The notes under the pieces are model-generated. The model saw only the letters and a list, made by a program, of their open reading frames with translations. It was not told where the DNA came from and did not search any database. Position numbers and translations under genes: made by a program. DNA of 64,000 nucleotides, taken from NCBI RefSeq assembly GCF_056712565.1, contig NZ_CM160072.1; one strand, written 5' to 3'. Positions 1-51,755 of this stretch are shown piece by piece (the first letter of the stretch is position 1; each line of letters opens with the position of its first letter).

Positions 1-206
1 CACTGTCATGGAGCACTATCGACCGTATGGAGCGCGCAGGGGAATTTCCTAAACGCTGGTATATCACTGACAAACGCTGCGCATGGAACCGTGACGAAGT
101 TGAGCGTTGGCTTGATGAACGTCAGGCAGCAAGCCCGGCAGAGTTCCAGGGTAAAAAACCTCCTGTTCAGCAACGTGTATATCGTCCCGTGAGCAACGCT
201 GCATGA
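1..206 (+). CDS. AlpA-family phage transcriptional regulator / excisionase-like HTH protein, 5'-partial (runs off window start)
   Basis: Frame from nt 3 translates ...LSWSTIDRMERAGEFPKRWYITDKRCAWNRDEVERWLDERQ...VSNAA, stop TGA at 204-206. The GEFPK...W...DEVE.WL pattern is typical of AlpA-type regulators of P4-like elements. Not in the ORF track because the start lies outside the window. Confidence 0.5.
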   Translation, partial: LSWSTIDRMERAGEFPKRWYITDKRCAWNRDEVERWLDERQAASPAEFQGKKPPVQQRVYRPVSNAA

Positions 207-315
207 GTGCGCTGCTAAGGCACTGGAGCAAATGGTCAGGATGGTACTTATTCCTGGCCTCTGTTTCAGCATGGCTTTATCTGCTGGCATTAATTTTCAG
301 AGAGGGTTGGATTAA

Positions 316-615
316 GTGAGAAAGTTAAGCCGACTTGAAAAATATCACATGAATAAGGTTTCAATGCGCAGTCCGTCAAAGATTGTCGCCGTTACTCCTG
401 CGGCGATAGAGATCGAAAAACGCGCGATTGAAAGAGAGAAAAAAGGGCAATTCCGCATTGCCGCTCACCTTTGGCTTCAGTGTATGGATGTTGCTTCTGG
501 TGATGTTGAACGTGCAAGGATCGCGGTTCGCAGGGACCAATGTATCACAAAAGGTAACGGCCTTCGCCGTGGCGACTATAGCGGCATAGGATGTTGTGGG
601 GTGGTTTATGACTAA
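316..615 (+). CDS. hypothetical protein of integrative element
   Basis: 99-aa ORF from the track, GTG at 316 preceded by AGAGGG; internal ATGs at 349 and 364 are alternative starts. No recognisable motif. Sits between the AlpA-like gene and the methyltransferase, same strand. Confidence 0.3.
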   Translation: MRKLSRLEKYHMNKVSMRSPSKIVAVTPAAIEIEKRAIEREKKGQFRIAAHLWLQCMDVASGDVERARIAVRRDQCITKGNGLRRGDYSGIGCCGVVYD

Positions 616-1258
616 GAAATACACACTAATCTATGCAGATCCACCCTGGGTATACCGGGACAAAGCCGCAGATGGTAATCGCGGTGCCGGTTTTAAATAT
701 CCGGTTATGAGTGTGCTGGATATCTGCCGCCTTCCTGTGTGGGATTTGGCCGATGAAAACTGTCTGTTGGCCATGTGGTGGGTGCCAACACAACCACTCG
801 AAGCACTAAAAGTTGTTGAAGCCTGGGGATTCCGTCTGATGACGATGAAGGGCTTCACGTGGATAAAATGTGGTAGTCGACAACCAGATAAACTGGTTAT
901 GGGTATGGGACACATGACTCGCGCCAATAGTGAAGATTGCCTGTTTGCGGTAAAGGGAAAACTACCTACGCGCATTAATGCAGGGATCGTTCAGTCATTT
1001 ACCGCACCGCGGCTTGAGCATTCAAGAAAGCCAGATATCGTTCGTGAAAAACTTGTGCAATTATTAGGCGATGTTTCTCGCATTGAACTGTTCGCCCGCC
1101 AGACGTCTCATGGCTTCGATGTTTGGGGTAATCAGTGCGAAGACCCGGCAGTGCAACTACACCCTGGATACGCGTTGGATATTGGCGGATTAACAAATGC
1201 ATTCAGCAATGCTCCGCTGTCACCAACAGACATCCAGGGGCGGGAGCGTGCTGCATGA
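608..1258 (+). CDS. MT-A70 family DNA N6-adenine methyltransferase (phage-type orphan methylase)
   Basis: Translation MTKKYTLIYADPPW... contains the DPPW catalytic motif of MT-A70 adenine methyltransferases. ATG at 608 preceded by GGGGTGG; the track ORF starts 12 nt earlier at a GTG. Confidence 0.7.
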   Translation: MTKKYTLIYADPPWVYRDKAADGNRGAGFKYPVMSVLDICRLPVWDLADENCLLAMWWVPTQPLEALKVVEAWGFRLMTMKGFTWIKCGSRQPDKLVMGMGHMTRANSEDCLFAVKGKLPTRINAGIVQSFTAPRLEHSRKPDIVREKLVQLLGDVSRIELFARQTSHGFDVWGNQCEDPAVQLHPGYALDIGGLTNAFSNAPLSPTDIQGRERAA

Positions 1259-1449
1259 ACAGGGCATCACCAGCAGATTTAAGAAAATGCCTTGAAACTG
1301 CAAACATGCTTGCACACAGCGGGATCAGGTTTGTTCCAATTCCCGCTGTCACTGATGCTGAATTTGCAACACTGTCAGCAATATTCGAAAACAAAATTGA
1401 ATCACTGGCAGCAGAAGCAGAGATGGAAGAAAATCAGCAGAACTATTAA
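1255..1449 (+). CDS. small phage-associated hypothetical protein
   Basis: ATG overlaps the methyltransferase stop (ATGA, translational coupling). 64 aa, MNRASPADLRKCLETANMLAHSGIRFVPIPAVTDAEF...; lies between the methylase and the integrase. The 104-aa track ORF (1135..1449) is a longer in-frame form overlapping the methylase. Confidence 0.4.
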   Translation: MNRASPADLRKCLETANMLAHSGIRFVPIPAVTDAEFATLSAIFENKIESLAAEAEMEENQQNY

Positions 1450-1452
1450 ACG

Positions 1453-2703
1453 TTATTCCCCCGCCATCCACTTCTCAAACTTCGACGGGGAGAACGGAAT
1501 CAGATCCGTATGCTCCCCGTCAATCCATGAATCAATCATATCGGCCCACTGCTGCAACATGTAGGCGCGCTGTCTGGCGTATTCCGCTTTGTTATATACG
1601 GCGCTCACACCTTTCTGCTCATGTGCCAGAGCCTTTTCAATCCAGTCTGAAGGATAACCAGCCTCATGCAACAACGTACTGGCTGTACGGCGCATATCGT
1701 GTACGGTGAAGCCCTGAATATGCTCACCATCTTCATTTATTATTTTCACCGTTCTGTCGATCAGAGAGTTCAGCGCGGCATTAGATAATGGCTTCCGGAA
1801 ATTGTAACGACCAGGAACCAGATATTCACTTCCACCAGCGCACATCTGCAACCCAACCAATATATCCTGTGCCTGTTTAGGCAGGTAAATAACGTGCGCC
1901 CGGCTTCCCTTCATGCGGTCTGGAGGAATTGTCCATGTCCATTTTTTAAAATCTATTTCATCCCACGTTGCATTGGTGAATTCGCCCTTACGAACCATAG
2001 TGATAAGCACCAGTTTTAAAGCCATTTTCATAGTGCCCATAGCACCAATGGCATCCAGCGTGCGGAAGAACAGGCCAATTTCTTCTGGTGTCAGTGTTCG
2101 CTCTCGTGGTTTAAATATGGCGATAGACGAAGGTTTAATGTCAGCCGCAGGATTAAACAAACCATGACCACGGTCATTGGCGTGACGGTATACGCTACTG
2201 ATGATCTCCCTGGCCTGCACTGCTGTTGCCCGGCCACCGCGTTCGACAATCCGGTCACACAAATCACGAACCATTGATGTGGTAATTTCAGCCATCATTT
2301 TATTGCCAAGAACCGGAAGTATGTCACGGTCGATCACCGCCTGTTTCATTGCGCGGGTACTGTCAGCCAGGATGACGTGTTTCATATAACTGTCGGTATG
2401 TACCGCAAACGTCTCGGCACCACGAATCTTTTTGATACCGTCACGTTTAGCCGCAGCCGGTGACTGGCCTGCTTTAAGCAGCTTCTTTGCAGCAATCAGT
2501 TCTTCTCGCGCTTCTGCCAGGCTGATACCGTCACGCCCATACTGCCCGATTACCAGTGTTTCGCGGCGACCGTTGATACGGTAGTCATAGCGAAACGAGA
2601 CCGTGCCTGACGTAAGCACAGCTACATACAGCCCGTCACGATCGGAGACCTTGTACAGTTTGTCCTGCGGCTTGAGATTTTTTAATTTTGTATCGGTAAG
2701 CAC
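1453..2703 (-). CDS. int: tyrosine-type site-specific integrase (P4-like family)
   Basis: 416 aa, N-terminus (M)LTDTKLKNLKP..., C-terminal catalytic region ...HDMRRTASTLLHEAG...KALAHEQKGVSAVYNKAEY with the R..H..R..Y signature. Start codon is GTG. Positioned at the edge of the element next to guaA. Confidence 0.85.
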   Translation of the reverse strand: MLTDTKLKNLKPQDKLYKVSDRDGLYVAVLTSGTVSFRYDYRINGRRETLVIGQYGRDGISLAEAREELIAAKKLLKAGQSPAAAKRDGIKKIRGAETFAVHTDSYMKHVILADSTRAMKQAVIDRDILPVLGNKMMAEITTSMVRDLCDRIVERGGRATAVQAREIISSVYRHANDRGHGLFNPAADIKPSSIAIFKPRERTLTPEEIGLFFRTLDAIGAMGTMKMALKLVLITMVRKGEFTNATWDEIDFKKWTWTIPPDRMKGSRAHVIYLPKQAQDILVGLQMCAGGSEYLVPGRYNFRKPLSNAALNSLIDRTVKIINEDGEHIQGFTVHDMRRTASTLLHEAGYPSDWIEKALAHEQKGVSAVYNKAEYARQRAYMLQQWADMIDSWIDGEHTDLIPFSPSKFEKWMAGE

Positions 2704-2811
2704 AATTCACCCGTATAGAAACCATTTTCATGACGGTATGAGAGTATACCTTTAAGGTAATACCGTCACCTGTACCGACGAAAAATATGGTGTAGAGTGA
2801 ATAGAAATGAA

Positions 2812-2848
2812 TACATAAAAACAAAAACCCTCTGTAAAAACAGAGGGT
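2812..2848 (-). terminator. Rho-independent terminator downstream of guaA
   Basis: Hairpin ccctctg-taaaaa-cagaggg, followed on the minus strand by TTTTTGTTTTT, about 50 nt past the guaA stop. Confidence 0.5.
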
Positions 2849-2895
2849 TAAATTAGTATCTGAATAGGAATGAGTTGCTATGAGTTAGCTGTTAA

Positions 2896-4473
2896 TCATT
2901 CCCACTCAATAGTTGCTGGTGGCTTGCCGCTGATGTCATACACCACGCGGGAAATACCATTCACTTCATTGATAATGCGGTTGGAAACGCGGCCGAGGAA
3001 GTCGTACGGCAGATGTGCCCAGTGTGCGGTCATAAAGTCGATGGTTTCGACAGCACGCAGAGAGACAACCCAGTCATACTTACGACCATCGCCCATTACG
3101 CCAACGGAACGTACTGGCAAGAAGACGGTGAACGCCTGGCTGACTTTGTCGTACAGGTCCGCTTTACGCAGTTCTTCAATGAAGATGGCGTCAGCACGGC
3201 GCAGCAGGTCACAATACTCTTTCTTCACTTCTCCCAGAACACGAACGCCAAGGCCTGGTCCCGGGAACGGGTGACGGTACAACATGTCATACGGTAGGCC
3301 CAGCTCCAGACCAATCTTACGCACTTCGTCTTTGAACAGCTCTTTCAGCGGTTCAACCAGGCCCATCTTCATCTCTTTCGGCAGGCCACCCACGTTGTGG
3401 TGAGATTTGATGACGTGTGCTTTACCGGTTGCAGAAGCAGCAGATTCGATAACGTCAGGGTAGATGGTGCCCTGCGCCAGCCACTTCACGTCTTCCAGTT
3501 TCAGCGCTTCTTCATCGAATACTTCAACGAAAACGCGACCGATAATTTTACGTTTTGCTTCCGGATCGTTTTCGCCAGCCAGCGCTGACAAGAAGCGATC
3601 TTCTGCCGGTACGTGAACAATGTTCAGACCAAAGTGATCGCCAAACATATCCAGAACCTGCTCTGCTTCGTTGAGACGCAGCAGGCCGTTGTCGACGAAT
3701 ACGCAAGTCAGGTTTTTACCGATAGCGCGGTGCAACAGCATTGCGGTAACGGAGGAATCCACGCCACCAGAGAGGCCGAGGATGACTTTATCGTCGCCCA
3801 CTTGCTCGCGGATGCGGGCTACAGCGTCGTCGATAATTTTCGCTGGCGTCCACAGGGCTTCACACTGGCAGATATCACGCACAAAACGCTCCAGCATGCG
3901 CATACCCTGGCGGGTGTGAGTCACTTCCGGGTGGAACTGTACGCCATAGAAGCGTTTTTCTTCGTTGGCCATGATGGCAAACGGGCAGCTTTCGGTGCTG
4001 GCTACGGTGACGAAGTCGGACGGGATAGCGGTAACTTTATCGCCGTGGCTCATCCAGACGTCCAGCAGCGGTTTACCATCTGCGGTCAGCGCATCTTCGA
4101 TACCGCGAACCAGTGCGCTGTCGTTTACGACTTCAACCTGCGCGTAGCCAAATTCACGTTCGTTAGAGGCTTCAACGTGACCGCCCAACTGCATTGCCAT
4201 GGTCTGCATGCCATAGCAAACGCCGAATACCGGTACGCCTGCTTCAAAGACATACTGCGGCGCACGCGGGCTGTTTTCTTCGGTGGTGCTTTCCGGGCCG
4301 CCGGAAAGAATAATGCCGCTTGGATTGAAGTCACGAATTTGTGCTTCTGTCACATCCCACGCCCACAGTTCGCAGTAAACACCCAGCTCACGCACGCGGC
4401 GCGCAACCAGTTGAGTGTACTGAGAACCGAAGTCCAGAATGAGGATGCGATGCTTATGAATGTTTTCCGTCAT
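2896..4473 (-). CDS. guaA: GMP synthase (glutamine-hydrolysing)
   Basis: 525 aa; [36 protein letters not shown]... through ...[11 protein letters not shown] start. Confidence 0.97.
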
Positions 4474-7614: not shown

Positions 7615-10170
7615 TTACTGGAAGCAGGTCACCAGACCCGGTTTATTTATTAGCGTGATACTACAATCCTGCGCTCCAGTACCTTCGTCCATCCCACACT
7701 GTTGAGAGGACAAATAAGGAAAACTGGGTGAAGACGGCCATCCCAGTGAATTAAAAACAGTATGCAACAACTCTAATTCATTGTATGTCGGTGCATTTTC
7801 TATGCTGCCACACTGCCTTGCGATATCCCATTTACTGGCATCAATGATATGTGCAGAAGCCCAGTTTTCGTAGTTAATAATCGGTGAGGATACGGGATTA
7901 GCCCCGGACGGCAATTCCGTCGTTAACAACGGTCGATGTAGCGATTTACTATTCACCACTACCGTGTCTGCCATATGTCCCCAAAAGTGCGCCGATGAAA
8001 CATTTGGGCTGGTTGGCACCGTAAAAATAGCATCCAGCGTGTCTGTCGCGGAAGCGTAATTAGCCAGAGTAACCGTCAGTGGCATTTTATAACCAGGGGT
8101 ATTATCCTGGCGGAGCGTAAAACTTGCCGTCCCATCCGCGCCTGTCATGCCACTAATGGTATTACCGCTTTCACTCAGCGTAACAGCCGAACCTGATAAC
8201 GGCTGAACGACGAGATCGTCCATCGCCACTACATTGCCATACAACGTTGCCCCAGCGTTACGCGGCGATGCCTCACCACGTTTCAAAGTAAATTCAACAT
8301 TCGGCACCGTATTCCCGGCGCTGTCTTTCACCGTCACGGTAACGGACATGGCTTCGCCTTTTTTCACTTTCGCCGCCTGAGTGGCTGCATCAAACGCTGT
8401 TGAGGTAAGTGTGACGCTGGAAACCGTTGAACGCGCGTTAGCCAGGCAAGGCTGAAATGATTTTGTTGAACCCGTATACAGCGTGCCATTTCTCAAATCA
8501 ACCGACTGGTCTTTACCATCGGCGGATTTATCCTCTGCCCACCAGGTGTAATACGCAGGCCAGCCAGTTTCAGTGACAAACGTGTTATTCGGATAACGCG
8601 CAGACAACGAACTTAAATCATTGAATAGTGGCTGCCTTGCTACTTCACAAGGGCTCACACTCGCATCTGATTTCTGTGTTGGGGTAAAGTACGGCCAGTC
8701 TTCATTATTGTTATTGATCTTGCCGACGCCAGAAGTCGATGTCAGTTCACTCCACAATTTCGGGCGTTCAAATACCGCACCATTCACTGCCGTCAAGGTT
8801 GCTGGCATATGCCCCCAGTAGTTAGCCTTCGCAGAATCCGGGCTGGTCACTACCGTGAATATCAGGTCCTGATTAGCCGTAACCTGCGGATTTCGCGCCA
8901 ATGAAGCTGTAAACGGCGTTACCAGACCAACGGTGTTATTTTGGGTAACGTTGAACGTTATCGTGCCATCACTGCCGGTGAAGCCGCTCCATGCCGACGT
9001 ATTCTGGTTGAAGGAGATACGCGCCGATGTCGGGGTGACTTCATCTAAAATGAGATCATCTACGGTATTGGAGGATACAGAGATCCCTGAACGGCTTTTC
9101 GCCTGCACGCGCTTGAGCGTAACACCTTCGCCGCCAACAGGATTACCATTGGCATCTTTGATCGTCACCACGATGGGAAGCATCTCACCTTTTTTCACAG
9201 ATGACGTGGGGGTACCACCATTGCTGGCAGTTCGGCCCTCATCATAGGCAGTCGATGACAGCGTAAGGCTTGCTGGTGCCGAATGTGGCTGCGTCAGACA
9301 GAGCATTAAAGCGTATCCATTAATAGTCGTCGTCGATTGTCCCGTTTTCAAATTAATGACGCCGTAATACCACGTCAACGCGTCAGTGGTGCTCATTTCA
9401 TAAGTCCACCAATTTCCACTTCCGGCAGTTATAGGCAACCCCAAATCTGTCAGTATTGTCCCGCCTGGATGATCATTATATAGCCCCTGTAACTCATTGA
9501 GACGCGGCTGATACTCAACCGGGCAATCCGGCGTAACTTTATTGGTATAAAAAAGGTATGACCACGACTCATTATTATTACTTACCGAGGACCCCAAGGT
9601 CGCTTCTGCTGCCAGTAGCGGTCGTTTAAAGGTCACCCCCGCCCTACTGGTAAACGTGTCGGGCATATGACCCCAGTATTTTGCTTTCGGTGAGTTCGGA
9701 CTGGTTATCACAGTGAAAATAACATCCATCGTGGCACTTTTTGTGGTGTCGCGCATCAATGTTGCAGTGAGCGGAGTTGCCAGCCCATAAGTCTCGTTTT
9801 GCGTCACATCAAAAGTCGCTTTACCATCACTTCCTGTCGTCAGAAGTGCCTGTGCCCCATTATTATAGAGTGACATGTTTACTCCGGCAGGGGTGACCGG
9901 CACGATAGTAAGATCATCATACGTAGAATCTAGCCTGTTTTTTGCACGATCCAACGCAGTCCCGCGTATGAGATTAAAGTTTGCGCCTGGCAACAGATTT
10001 CCTCCGCTATCCCGCACAATCACCGTCATCCGGATCGCCGTACCTTTCGCCGCCGTTGCACTAGGGCGACCATCGTTGCTGGCCGTTTTCTCCGCATCCA
10101 GTGCCGTGGAGGTCATCTCTATAGAAGCTGCCACTGCATGAGGGTTTACCAGACAGGACACAAATGCCAC
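7615..10170 (-). CDS. ratA: C-terminal segment of the giant RatA-like Ig-like repeat protein; not an independent gene (no signal peptide, frame stays open upstream to about 10308)
   Basis: 851-aa track ORF beginning at an internal GTG. It carries 3 further copies of the repeat module (KYWGHMPDTFTSRAGVTFKRPLLAAE, NYWGHMPATLTAVNGAVFERPKLWSE, HFWGHMADTVVVNSKSLHRPLL). Its frame is open for 46 more codons upstream and that extension aligns with the repeat consensus. Confidence 0.7.
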   Translation of the reverse strand: MAFVSCLVNPHAVAASIEMTSTALDAEKTASNDGRPSATAAKGTAIRMTVIVRDSGGNLLPGANFNLIRGTALDRAKNRLDSTYDDLTIVPVTPAGVNMSLYNNGAQALLTTGSDGKATFDVTQNETYGLATPLTATLMRDTTKSATMDVIFTVITSPNSPKAKYWGHMPDTFTSRAGVTFKRPLLAAEATLGSSVSNNNESWSYLFYTNKVTPDCPVEYQPRLNELQGLYNDHPGGTILTDLGLPITAGSGNWWTYEMSTTDALTWYYGVINLKTGQSTTTINGYALMLCLTQPHSAPASLTLSSTAYDEGRTASNGGTPTSSVKKGEMLPIVVTIKDANGNPVGGEGVTLKRVQAKSRSGISVSSNTVDDLILDEVTPTSARISFNQNTSAWSGFTGSDGTITFNVTQNNTVGLVTPFTASLARNPQVTANQDLIFTVVTSPDSAKANYWGHMPATLTAVNGAVFERPKLWSELTSTSGVGKINNNNEDWPYFTPTQKSDASVSPCEVARQPLFNDLSSLSARYPNNTFVTETGWPAYYTWWAEDKSADGKDQSVDLRNGTLYTGSTKSFQPCLANARSTVSSVTLTSTAFDAATQAAKVKKGEAMSVTVTVKDSAGNTVPNVEFTLKRGEASPRNAGATLYGNVVAMDDLVVQPLSGSAVTLSESGNTISGMTGADGTASFTLRQDNTPGYKMPLTVTLANYASATDTLDAIFTVPTSPNVSSAHFWGHMADTVVVNSKSLHRPLLTTELPSGANPVSSPIINYENWASAHIIDASKWDIARQCGSIENAPTYNELELLHTVFNSLGWPSSPSFPYLSSQQCGMDEGTGAQDCSITLINKPGLVTCFQ

Positions 10171-10286
10171 GGTGTTTGATAATGCCCTGGAGCTTGATCC
10201 ATTCGATAAATTAATAGACTGATCGTACCAGACGTTCGCGTAGGCAATTTTATCGTAAGCCCACCAGGTGTTAGTCAGCGGAAGGC

Positions 10287-50812: not shown

Positions 50813-51015
50813 GAGTCCCTCCCGTCAGGAGGCGTTAGTCTGAGGTTAATCGAATGTTGGTGCAAGTTGAAAAATAAGAATATTCGAGCCTGCTTCCTGA
50901 CGGTTATCCTGCATATCAGGAAATGACAAAAAAGAGCGGCCCACAACACAACATGTAAAAAAGAACGATGAAACAGGTGAAAATCGCAATTTATTGAACT
51001 GACAAACTCATGTGA

Positions 51016-51048
51016 GACGGATAAGGCGTGCATGTCGCATCCGGCAGG
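51016..51048. repeat. REP element in the hcaT-yphA spacer
   Basis: gacggataaggcgtgcatgtcgcatccggcagg. Confidence 0.5.
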
Positions 51049-51180
51049 AAACAATAAGCACATTGTCAGCCATCTGCGTTATGCCGTTATACCAGAAACG
51101 AATATCTCAACGCCTGGGCGTGGCGAGGTACCAGAGTGTGTATTACGTTTAAATCACATCATCTTGCAAAGGGATTGGTT

Positions 51181-51603
51181 ATGAACTCACTACGTTATTT
51201 TGATTTTGGCACTGCCCGCCCCGTTTTATTATTAATTGCCCGTATCGCCGTGGTCTTAATTTTCATTATTTTTGGTTTTCCCAAAATGATGGGCTTTGGC
51301 GGTACGGTCCAATATATGGCCTCGCTGGGCGCACCAATGCCGATGCTGGCAGCGATTATTGCGGTAGTTATGGAAGTGCCCGCCGCGATATTAATCGTGC
51401 TTGGCTTTTTCACCCGTCCGCTGGCGGTGCTGTTTATTTTCTACACGCTGGGTACGGCGGTGATTGGCCACCATTACTGGGATATGACCGGCGATGCGGT
51501 TGGGCCAAATATGATTAATTTCTGGAAGAATGTCAGTATCGCTGGCGCATTCCTGCTGTTGGCAATTACCGGGCCGGGGGCGATTTCTCTCGATCGGCGT
51601 TAG
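51181..51603 (+). CDS. yphA: DoxX-family inner membrane protein YphA
   Basis: 140 aa from [28 protein letters not shown]...; ATG at 51181 with AGGGATTGG RBS. The track ORF has a 15-codon extension. Confidence 0.85.
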
Positions 51604-51607
51604 GAAA

Positions 51608-51755
<148 letters not shown>

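What the first reader, a model, noticed from the sequence alone, without database searches (positions are those of the whole stretch)
1..2895. Integrative element with a P4-type integrase abutting the 3' end of guaA
The integrase gene ends 192 bp from the guaA stop codon and is followed, going into the element, by a small ORF, an MT-A70 adenine methyltransferase, another small ORF and an AlpA-like regulator. No tRNA is present, so the attachment site is probably within or just past the guaA 3' end or terminator. I have a vague recollection that some enterobacterial phages integrate at guaA, but cannot confirm it. Cargo beyond the window start is unknown and could include defence or anti-defence genes, as is typical near P4-like integrases.
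Basis: partly seen in the sequence, partly recalled or inferred. Interest (0 to 1): 0.6.

Follow-up and report, generated by a model that had tools for sequence, protein, structure and literature searches.

The report
phiV10-like prophage end at guaA
The first 2.9 kb of the window is the integrase end of a well-known kind of temperate E. coli phage (phiV10/epsilon15 type) sitting in its published attachment site at the last codons of guaA, so it is real but ordinary.

Summary
Window 1-2910 holds an AlpA-like gene, a PerC-like gene, an MT-A70 methyltransferase, a DUF1382 gene and a tyrosine integrase, ending 192 bp from the guaA stop. There is no tRNA.

It is not a P4-like satellite or defence island. 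It is the integrase-proximal end of a Uetakevirus prophage. It is 98.5% identical over all 2895 bp to phage phiV10 and 98-99% identical to phiv142-3 and vB_EcoP_ZX5.

The junction is the 17-bp core AATCATTCCCACTCAAT (2894-2910). This is the published attP/attB of phiV10, epsilon15 and ZX5. It covers the last four guaA codons, the stop codon and two more bases. A near-isogenic strain with an empty site (S88) aligns at 99.97% starting exactly at base 2894.

The rest of the element lies outside the window. In TUM13773 the same end belongs to a 40,038-bp prophage flanked by exact 17-bp direct repeats.

The int-guaA junction occurs in 567 of 5426 complete E. coli genomes.

The phage also supplies a replacement terminator for guaA (2826-2849) and 10-bp integrase arm-site repeats.

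Verdict: already known, low interest.

The parts
1..206 (+). 3' part of an AlpA/Vis-family winged-helix gene (82 aa when complete; first 43 nt lie before the window). Candidate excisionase/regulator.
   Evidence: RefSeq CDS in the 100%-identical GPEC1337 copy is L001 19958-20206. Pfam Phage_AlpA E 4e-5. PHROG 66 'excisionase and transcriptional regulator' E 2e-16. 38% identity to P4 Vis/ORF88 over 50 aa.
203..319 (+). 38-aa small hydrophobic ORF at the position of phiV10p35 (annotated 'membrane protein').
   Evidence: Translation. phiV10 annotation at the corresponding position.
364..615 (+). PerC-family small transcriptional activator gene.
   Evidence: PHROG 868 'transcriptional activator' E 1e-51. 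RefSeq name 'PerC family transcriptional regulator'.
608..1258 (+). MT-A70-family (N6-adenine) DNA methyltransferase gene.
   Evidence: Pfam MT-A70, full-length model match, E 3e-22. PHROG 359 'DNA methyltransferase' E 3e-120.
1255..1449 (+). DUF1382 small ORF, last gene of the leftward early operon, ending 3 bp from the integrase stop codon.
   Evidence: PHROG 292 E 5e-30. RefSeq and phiV10 annotation.
1453..2703 (-). Tyrosine integrase (416 aa) with arm-binding, central and catalytic domains; epsilon15 type.
   Evidence: Pfam Arm-DNA-bind_3, Phage_int_M and Phage_integrase. 87% identity to epsilon15 Int. 28% identity, full length, to P4 Int.
2182..2769 (.). Cluster of 10-bp repeats ATACCGTCAC (2182-2191 on the - strand; 2435-2444, 2525-2534 and 2760-2769 on the + strand; a 9/10 inverted copy at 2730-2739). 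Candidate arm-type integrase-binding sites of the int-side att arm.
   Evidence: 4 exact copies against 0.07 expected in the 64-kb window. Three of them (2435-2444, 2525-2534, 2760-2769) have the same sequence and the same positions as sites annotated 'integrase' protein_bind in epsilon15. Binding was not tested.
2826..2849 (-). Phage-borne rho-independent terminator that now follows guaA. It is 25/27 identical to the native guaA terminator and lies between guaA and int.
   Evidence: Terminator scan: 10-bp stem with a T tract. RNA fold -19.9 kcal/mol, z = -3.5. Aligned with the K-12 terminator. Annotated as a terminator in phiV10 and epsilon15.
2894..2910 (.). 17-bp attachment-site core AATCATTCCCACTCAAT (int-proximal prophage/chromosome junction). 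It covers the last four guaA codons (I-E-W-E), the stop codon and 2 nt beyond.
   Evidence: It is the only stretch shared by window, phiV10 attP and K-12 attB. Unique in the window. Identical to the published core attgagtgggaatgatt (PMC9782041). The S88 empty-site alignment begins exactly at 2894.
2896..4473 (-). guaA (GMP synthase), the target gene; left intact by the insertion.
   Evidence: 525-aa ORF. RefSeq guaA in all matching genomes.

Best explanation
Window 1-2910 is the integrase-proximal end of a phiV10/epsilon15-type (genus Uetakevirus) temperate podovirus prophage, integrated at its canonical site, the 3' end of guaA.

Mechanism:
- The phage tyrosine integrase, helped by arm-type sites (ATACCGTCAC repeats) and probably IHF, recombines a 17-bp core in attP with the identical 17 bp at the end of guaA.
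- Phage and host cores are the same, so guaA keeps its last four codons and its stop codon.
- The phage DNA that now follows guaA carries a near-copy of the native guaA terminator. This should keep the guaBA operon terminated. By inference it also shields int from read-through.
- The displaced native terminator ends up behind the phage lysis genes at the far junction.
- The AlpA/Vis-like protein is the likely excision directionality factor.
- PerC-like, MT-A70 and DUF1382 are genes of the leftward early operon.

Shown here: identity to the phages, the exact junction, the direct repeats in proxy genomes and the domain content.

Inferred: the roles of the terminator, of the arm sites and of AlpA, and that the prophage is complete in this particular strain.
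For: - Identity to phages over 1-2895: 98.5% to phiV10, 99.0% to phiv142-3, 98.2% to vB_EcoP_ZX5. Gene order is the same as in phiV10.
- Integrase: 87% identical to epsilon15 Int.
- Core: the three-way alignment of window, phiV10 attP and K-12 attB shares only the 17-bp core plus the terminator. The core equals the attP/attB demonstrated by PCR and sequencing for ZX5 and cited there for phiV10 and epsilon15 (PMC9782041).
- Empty site: S88 aligns at 99.97% from base 2894 onward.
- Proxy lysogen: TUM13773 has exact 17-bp direct repeats 40,038 bp apart. They enclose portal, capsid, tail, lysis, replication and repressor genes.
- Prevalence: the int-guaA junction is in 567 of 5426 complete E. coli genomes.
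- Arm-site repeats. Terminator.
- Crossover position: a natural attB allele (C at core position 6) occurs in unoccupied sites. In GPEC1337 this C is kept only at the far junction. That places strand exchange within 2900-2910, which includes the 8-bp GAGTGGGA core (2900-2907) reported for GIsul2 (PMC9376610).
Against: - The window starts inside the prophage, so its completeness, size and cargo in this strain cannot be seen.
- The exact source genome is not in the collection. The only 100% match, GPEC1337, has a different chromosomal background, with flanks about 97% identical.
- Only 362 genomes show the TUM13773-type far junction, against 567 with the int junction. Some carriers therefore have divergent or truncated far ends.
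- The simple consensus scan found no sigma-70-like promoter for int.
- The functions of AlpA, the arm repeats and the terminator are inferred, not tested.
Confidence: 0.95

Rival explanations
1. The element is only a defective remnant: the int end of a once-complete phiV10-like prophage that has been truncated or rearranged upstream of the window and can no longer form phage.
For: The window shows only 2.9 kb of the element. 567 genomes carry the int-guaA junction, but only 362 carry a far junction of the TUM13773 type.
Against: All six ORFs in the window are intact. The segment is 100% identical to the GPEC1337 prophage copies and 98-99% identical to isolated, plaque-forming phages. Both proxy genomes examined hold full-length prophages. 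The shortfall in far junctions can equally reflect mosaic lysis modules.
Confidence: 0.15
2. One reading: a P4-like satellite or small integrative island that uses a P4-type integrase and carries defence or anti-defence cargo.
For: The integrase has P4-family architecture and is 28% identical to P4 Int. The AlpA-like protein resembles P4 Vis.
Against: There is no tRNA target. The whole module is nearly identical and syntenic to complete 39-40-kb podoviruses. The examined proxies contain portal, capsid, tail and lysis genes. The P4 genes alpha, sid, delta and psu are not among their annotated products.
Confidence: 0.02
3. A GIsul2/CMGI-3-type genomic island. These are non-phage islands that also insert at the guaA 3' end and carry int and alpA next to guaA.
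For: It uses the same chromosomal site, and the GIsul2 core GAGTGGGA lies inside the 17-bp core. These integrases are reported in the same epsilon15 cluster.
Against: Gene content and nucleotide identity are those of phiV10. No rep, tra, ars or sul2 genes occur in any proxy.
Confidence: 0.01

Closest known systems
Escherichia phage phiV10 (Uetakevirus phiV10, NC_007804) and its close relatives phiv142-3, vB_EcoP_ZX5 and O157 typing phages 9/10
   Same: 98-99% nucleotide identity over all of 1-2895. Same gene order: alpA, small membrane ORF, perC, MT-A70, DUF1382, int, terminator, attP core. Same 17-bp core and same guaA target.
   Different: phiV10 carries an O-acetyltransferase (oac) and is annotated with host E. 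coli O157:H7. The closest prophage relatives of this window (GPEC1337, TUM13773) instead carry an endosialidase-type tailspike gene. The tailspike and morons of the window's own prophage are outside the window.
Salmonella phage epsilon15 (type Uetakevirus)
   Same: Integrase 87% identical. About 81% DNA identity over int and attP. Same core, the same 10-bp ATACCGTCAC sites annotated as integrase-binding, a terminator at the same place, and the guaA target.
   Different: The left early genes differ. epsilon15 has serotype-conversion genes next to int, and DNA similarity stops at the int stop codon.
Satellite phage P4 integrase/Vis system
   Same: Same three-domain integrase architecture. attP sits just upstream of int, with arm repeats partly inside the int gene. 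Both have an AlpA/Vis-type small DNA-binding protein.
   Different: Only 28% identity. P4 targets a tRNA gene (PMC8138268) and this one targets a protein-coding gene. P4 is an 11.6-kb satellite and this is the end of a ~40-kb autonomous phage. In the published tyrosine-recombinase classification the epsilon15 cluster is separate from the P4 cluster.
GIsul2 / CMGI-3-type genomic islands at guaA
   Same: Same attB at the 3' end of guaA. The 8-bp GAGTGGGA crossover core lies within the 17-bp phage core. int and alpA are present. They fall in the same integrase cluster.
   Different: These are mobilizable resistance or metal islands without virion genes. No sequence of that kind occurs here or in the proxies.

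Membership tests
Uetakevirus (epsilon15/phiV10-like) prophage | High nucleotide identity and synteny with type members over the int-attP-early-left module | tested here: met
   98.5% to phiV10 over 2895 bp with identical gene order. Int is 87% identical to epsilon15 Int.
Uetakevirus (epsilon15/phiV10-like) prophage | attP core ATTGAGTGGGAATGATT about 190 bp upstream of int, recombining with the identical sequence at the guaA 3' end | tested here: met
   Core at 2894-2910, 190 bp from the int start at 2703. Published core in PMC9782041. The empty-site strain S88 aligns from 2894.
Uetakevirus (epsilon15/phiV10-like) prophage | Podovirus structural module (portal, major capsid, Bbp16-type cement protein, tail/tailspike), lysis cassette, CI-like repressor | not testable with these tools
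   These lie upstream of window position 1. They are present in the proxies GPEC1337 and TUM13773, which share this end at 100% and 99.7%.
Uetakevirus (epsilon15/phiV10-like) prophage | Second copy of the core as a direct repeat at the far (yfgI-side) junction | not testable with these tools
   Outside the window. Exact repeat 40,038 bp away in TUM13773. A 16/17 repeat in GPEC1337, where the mismatch is a natural host attB allele.
P4-type integrase (broad family: arm-binding tyrosine integrases, CDD INT_P4 / IntSXT subgroup) | Arm-DNA-binding N-terminal domain + central domain + tyrosine-recombinase catalytic domain; detectable full-length homology to P4 Int | tested here: met
   Pfam PF13356, PF22022 and PF00589. 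28% identity and E 1e-39 over 410 aa to P4 Int.
P4 cluster of integrases in the strict sense | Integration downstream of or within a tRNA gene | tested here: not met
   No tRNA in the window. The target is guaA. The literature places epsilon15-type integrases in a separate guaA-targeting cluster (PMC8138268).
P4-like satellite / phage-inducible island | Small (about 10-15 kb) element with primase-helicase and helper-exploitation genes, lacking virion genes | tested here: not met
   The two proxy genomes examined that carry this end (GPEC1337, TUM13773) hold ~40-kb prophages with virion genes. None of the P4 genes is among their annotated products.
GIsul2-type guaA island | Insertion at guaA 3' end through the core GAGTGGGA | tested here: met
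   GAGTGGGA is the reverse complement of window 2900-2907, inside the core.
GIsul2-type guaA island | Backbone with rep/transfer-related genes, toxin-antitoxin, ars operon and the CR2-sul2 unit | tested here: not met
   No such genes in the window or in the proxies. The backbone is phage.

The most novel reading that the evidence does not exclude
The guaA 3' end may be a shared hotspot where unrelated elements compete or pile up. The elements would be Uetakevirus prophages and GIsul2-type resistance islands, whose integrases are reported in the same cluster and whose 8-bp core lies inside the phage's 17-bp core. Each integration regenerates a core at both ends. A resident phiV10-like prophage, present in about 10% of complete E. 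coli genomes, could therefore be a landing pad for a second element. The apparent tandem double prophage in GPEC1337 is an example. The phage-borne copy of the guaA terminator would keep guaBA and int transcriptionally insulated each time.
Probability: 0.3. Interest if true: 0.3.

Novelty: already known. Interest (0 to 1): 0.08.

Why it matters
It matters little as a discovery. The phage genus, its integrase, the 17-bp attachment core and the guaA target have all been published, and integration was shown experimentally for a 98%-identical phage.

The check is useful for annotation:
- It fixes the prophage/chromosome boundary to the base (2894).
- It shows guaA is intact and followed by a phage-supplied terminator.
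- It warns that the region left of the window is about 37 kb of ordinary temperate-phage genes, not a defence island.

Two minor by-products:
- A natural attB polymorphism places the crossover within 2900-2910.
- About one in ten complete E. coli genomes carries this junction.

Tried and rejected
- NCBIfam gave nothing for the four small proteins or the methyltransferase. For the integrase it gave only a below-cutoff PRK09692 hit. PHROGs and Pfam were informative instead.
- GPEC1337 was first assumed to be the source genome because it is 100% identical over 1-2895. This was rejected: its flanking chromosome is only about 97% identical and lacks the 12-kb adhesin island. Its prophage copies are used only as proxies.
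- The chromosome matches ST95-type strains such as S88, but those with a prophage at guaA match the phage part at only about 99.3%. The true source is therefore not in the collection.
- The simple sigma-70 scan found no promoter in 1-3100, so the int promoter could not be located.
- The epsilon15 genome paper (PMC2698709) is not held. Its attP and guaA statements are cited second-hand through PMC9782041 and PMC8138268 and through the epsilon15 GenBank features.
- A first family search failed on a wrong reading frame for the cut alpA gene.
- No deep protein-database, structure-prediction or metagenome searches were run. Near-identity to characterised phages made them unnecessary.
Full report
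**1. Observation**

- guaA is 2896-4473 on the minus strand.
- A 416-aa ORF is 1453-2703 on the minus strand.
- Converging on it from the left, on the plus strand, are DUF1382 (1255-1449), an MT-A70 methyltransferase (608-1258), a PerC-like ORF (364-615) and the 3' part of an AlpA-like gene ending at 206.
- A 38-codon ORF at 203-319 was overlooked.

The 192-bp gap is correct, but it separates the guaA stop codon from the START of the integrase gene. guaA and int are co-directional. ARAGORN finds no tRNA in the 64-kb window.

Domain assignments hold:

| Gene | Evidence |
|---|---|
| Integrase | Arm-DNA-bind_3 + Phage_int_M + Phage_integrase |
| Methyltransferase | MT-A70, full-length model match |
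| AlpA-like | Phage_AlpA |
| All five | PHROG families for integrase, DNA methyltransferase, excisionase/regulator, transcriptional activator, and an unknown-function family for DUF1382 |

**2. What it is**

A megablast of 1-2895 against the phage collection returns complete temperate podoviruses of the genus Uetakevirus over the full query length:
- phiv142-3 at 99.0%
- phiV10 at 98.5%
- O157 typing phages 9 and 10 at 98.5%
- vB_EcoP_ZX5 at 98.2%
- TL-2011b at 96.9%

Salmonella phage epsilon15 and its relatives match the integrase/attP half at about 81%.

The phiV10 annotation shows the same gene order: AlpA family, small membrane protein, PerC-type activator, DNA methyltransferase, DUF1382, integrase, terminator, then the Rz spanin and lysis genes on the other side of attP. 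The integrase is 87% identical to epsilon15 Int and 28% identical over its full length to P4 Int.

In complete E. coli genomes the segment occurs in 553 of 5426 genomes.

**3. The junction**

I aligned the window with phiV10 attP and the K-12 guaA-yfgI region.
- The window follows the phage to the left and the chromosome to the right.
- The only stretch common to all three at the switch point is AATCATTCCCACTCAAT, window 2894-2910.
- Its reverse complement, ATTGAGTGGGAATGATT, encodes I-E-W-E-stop, the end of guaA.
- The 17-mer is unique in the window, with 0.01 expected by chance.
- It is exactly the core reported as attP/attB for vB_EcoP_ZX5. That site was verified by PCR and Sanger sequencing of attB, attL and attR. 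The same paper states it for phiV10 and epsilon15 (PMC9782041).

The best control is strain S88. Its chromosome is 99.97-99.98% identical to window 2894-40427, and it has yfgI directly next to guaA. The alignment begins exactly at base 2894.

**4. The far end**

The far end lies outside the window, so I used proxies.

TUM13773 is 99.7% identical over 1-2895.
- The element runs from guaA to yfgI.
- It is bounded by exact 17-bp direct repeats 40,038 bp apart.
- It contains a CI-like repressor, RecT and a nuclease, replication genes and terminase.
- It also has portal, major capsid, a Bbp16-type cement protein and tail and internal virion proteins.
- An endosialidase-type tailspike, holins, endolysin and spanin complete the set.

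GPEC1337 is 100% identical over 1-2910.
- The assembly shows two head-to-tail copies of the prophage, with an attP-like internal junction.
- Its far-end core differs at one base: AATCACTCCCACTCAAT.

I rebuilt the hypothetical unoccupied attB carrying that C. It occurs at 100% identity in many genomes with an empty site. The C is therefore a host allele, with GAG instead of GAA as the last guaA codon. It was retained on the host side of the far junction, while the guaA-proximal junction carries the phage's T. This places strand exchange to the guaA side of position 2899, within 2900-2910. That interval includes the 8-bp core GAGTGGGA (2900-2907) defined for the GIsul2 island, which uses the same site (PMC9376610).

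**5. How it works**

Shown:
- attP and attB share the 17-bp core, so integration regenerates the guaA reading frame and stop codon.
- Downstream of guaA the phage supplies AAAAACCCTCTGTAAAAACAGAGGGTT. This is 25/27 identical to the native guaA terminator.
- It scores as an intrinsic terminator on the guaA strand at 2849-2826. It folds at -19.9 kcal/mol, z = -3.5.
- It is annotated as a terminator in both phiV10 and epsilon15.

Inferred:
- In the free phage this hairpin ends the lysis operon just before int.
- In the lysogen it terminates guaBA and shields int from read-through.
- The displaced host terminator then follows the lysis genes at the far junction.

The 10-mer ATACCGTCAC occurs four times between 2182 and 2769, against 0.07 expected in the whole window, plus a 9/10 inverted copy at 2730-2739. 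Three of the exact copies (2435-2444, 2525-2534, 2760-2769) have the same sequence and positions as sites annotated as integrase-binding in epsilon15. A further copy lies across the core on the Rz side in phiV10. These are the probable arm-type sites for the N-terminal Arm-DNA-binding domain. As in P4, some lie inside the int gene.

The AlpA-like protein is 38% identical to P4 Vis and falls in the PHROG family 'excisionase and transcriptional regulator'. I infer it is the excision directionality factor. This is untested.

The MT-A70 enzyme, the PerC-like protein and DUF1382 are conserved early-left genes of the phage. Their roles are not established here.

**6. Comparison with the known**

The closest known entities are phiV10 and its relatives, with epsilon15 as type species. 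A published classification of tyrosine recombinases places epsilon15-type integrases in the IntSXT subgroup. [quoted passage not shown]

'P4-type' is therefore acceptable for architecture and broad family. It is not acceptable for the P4 cluster in the strict sense, and not for the element type: this is an autonomous phage, not a satellite. Phage TL-2011b was also reported inserted in guaA (PMC3293862).

**7. Prevalence**

- The int-guaA junction (window 2500-3100) is covered at 80% or more in 567 of 5426 complete genomes.
- A far junction of the TUM13773 type is found in 362.
- The reconstructed attB is contiguous in 4571 genomes.

So roughly 850 genomes have something at this site, and not all of it carries this integrase module. 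I did not examine the remainder.

**8. Verdict**

The feature is an already-described prophage end at an already-described attachment site.

Remaining uncertainties:
- Whether the prophage is complete in this strain.
- What tailspike and morons it carries. Close relatives carry an endosialidase-type tailspike, and the chromosome matches S88, SF-468 and MS7163, which I recall as K1, ST95-type strains.
- The untested roles of AlpA, the arm repeats and the terminator.

Noticed in passing
L001 20001-22910, L002 20937-23846 and L005 27352-27368 (E. coli GPEC1337, NZ_CM142779.1): The only genome 100% identical to window 1-2910 shows two complete head-to-tail copies of the prophage at guaA. They share an attP-like internal junction and are annotated with identical protein accessions in both copies. 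This is either a tandem double lysogen or an assembly artefact.
   Followed up: partly
window 7615-19025: A 12-kb block between xseA and yfgJ/der is absent from K-12 and GPEC1337. It carries a giant adhesion-domain protein gene, a SinI-family gene and the intimin-like inverse autotransporter gene SinH. Here the adhesin is split into two ORFs (851 aa at 7615-10170 and 1792 aa at 10287-15665), whereas S88 has one 8052-bp CDS. sinI (15786-16763) is intact here but frameshifted in S88.
   Followed up: partly
window about 50900-51750: Relative to GPEC1337, the window lacks about 5.3 kb holding hcaR and hcaEFCBD (the 3-phenylpropionate dioxygenase cluster). hcaT is retained. The window also lacks the IS1397 copy next to yphA.
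   Followed up: no
attB at the guaA 3' end across 5426 E. coli genomes (window 2894-2910 equivalent): The unoccupied attB is contiguous in 4571 genomes, but only 567 carry this integrase junction. A few hundred genomes therefore seem to have a different or more divergent element at the same site, possibly other epsilon15-cluster integrase elements such as GIsul2-like islands.
   Followed up: no
window 2899; L005 27352-27368: There is a natural synonymous polymorphism in the last guaA codon (GAA/GAG) inside the att core. Integration of the phage replaces the host allele at the guaA-proximal junction and leaves it at the far junction. This maps the crossover to 2900-2910.
   Followed up: yes
L007 15671-16320, 35381-36320 and 36798-39917; L002 15383-18502: Close prophage relatives carry a tRNA-Arg gene and a 3.1-kb endosialidase-type tailspike gene, which I read as K1-capsule specific. 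Their small accessory genes vary: TUM13773 has a YafO-family toxin and a Gp49-family protein, and GPEC1337 has neither. phiV10's O-acetyltransferase is not among their annotated products.
   Followed up: no
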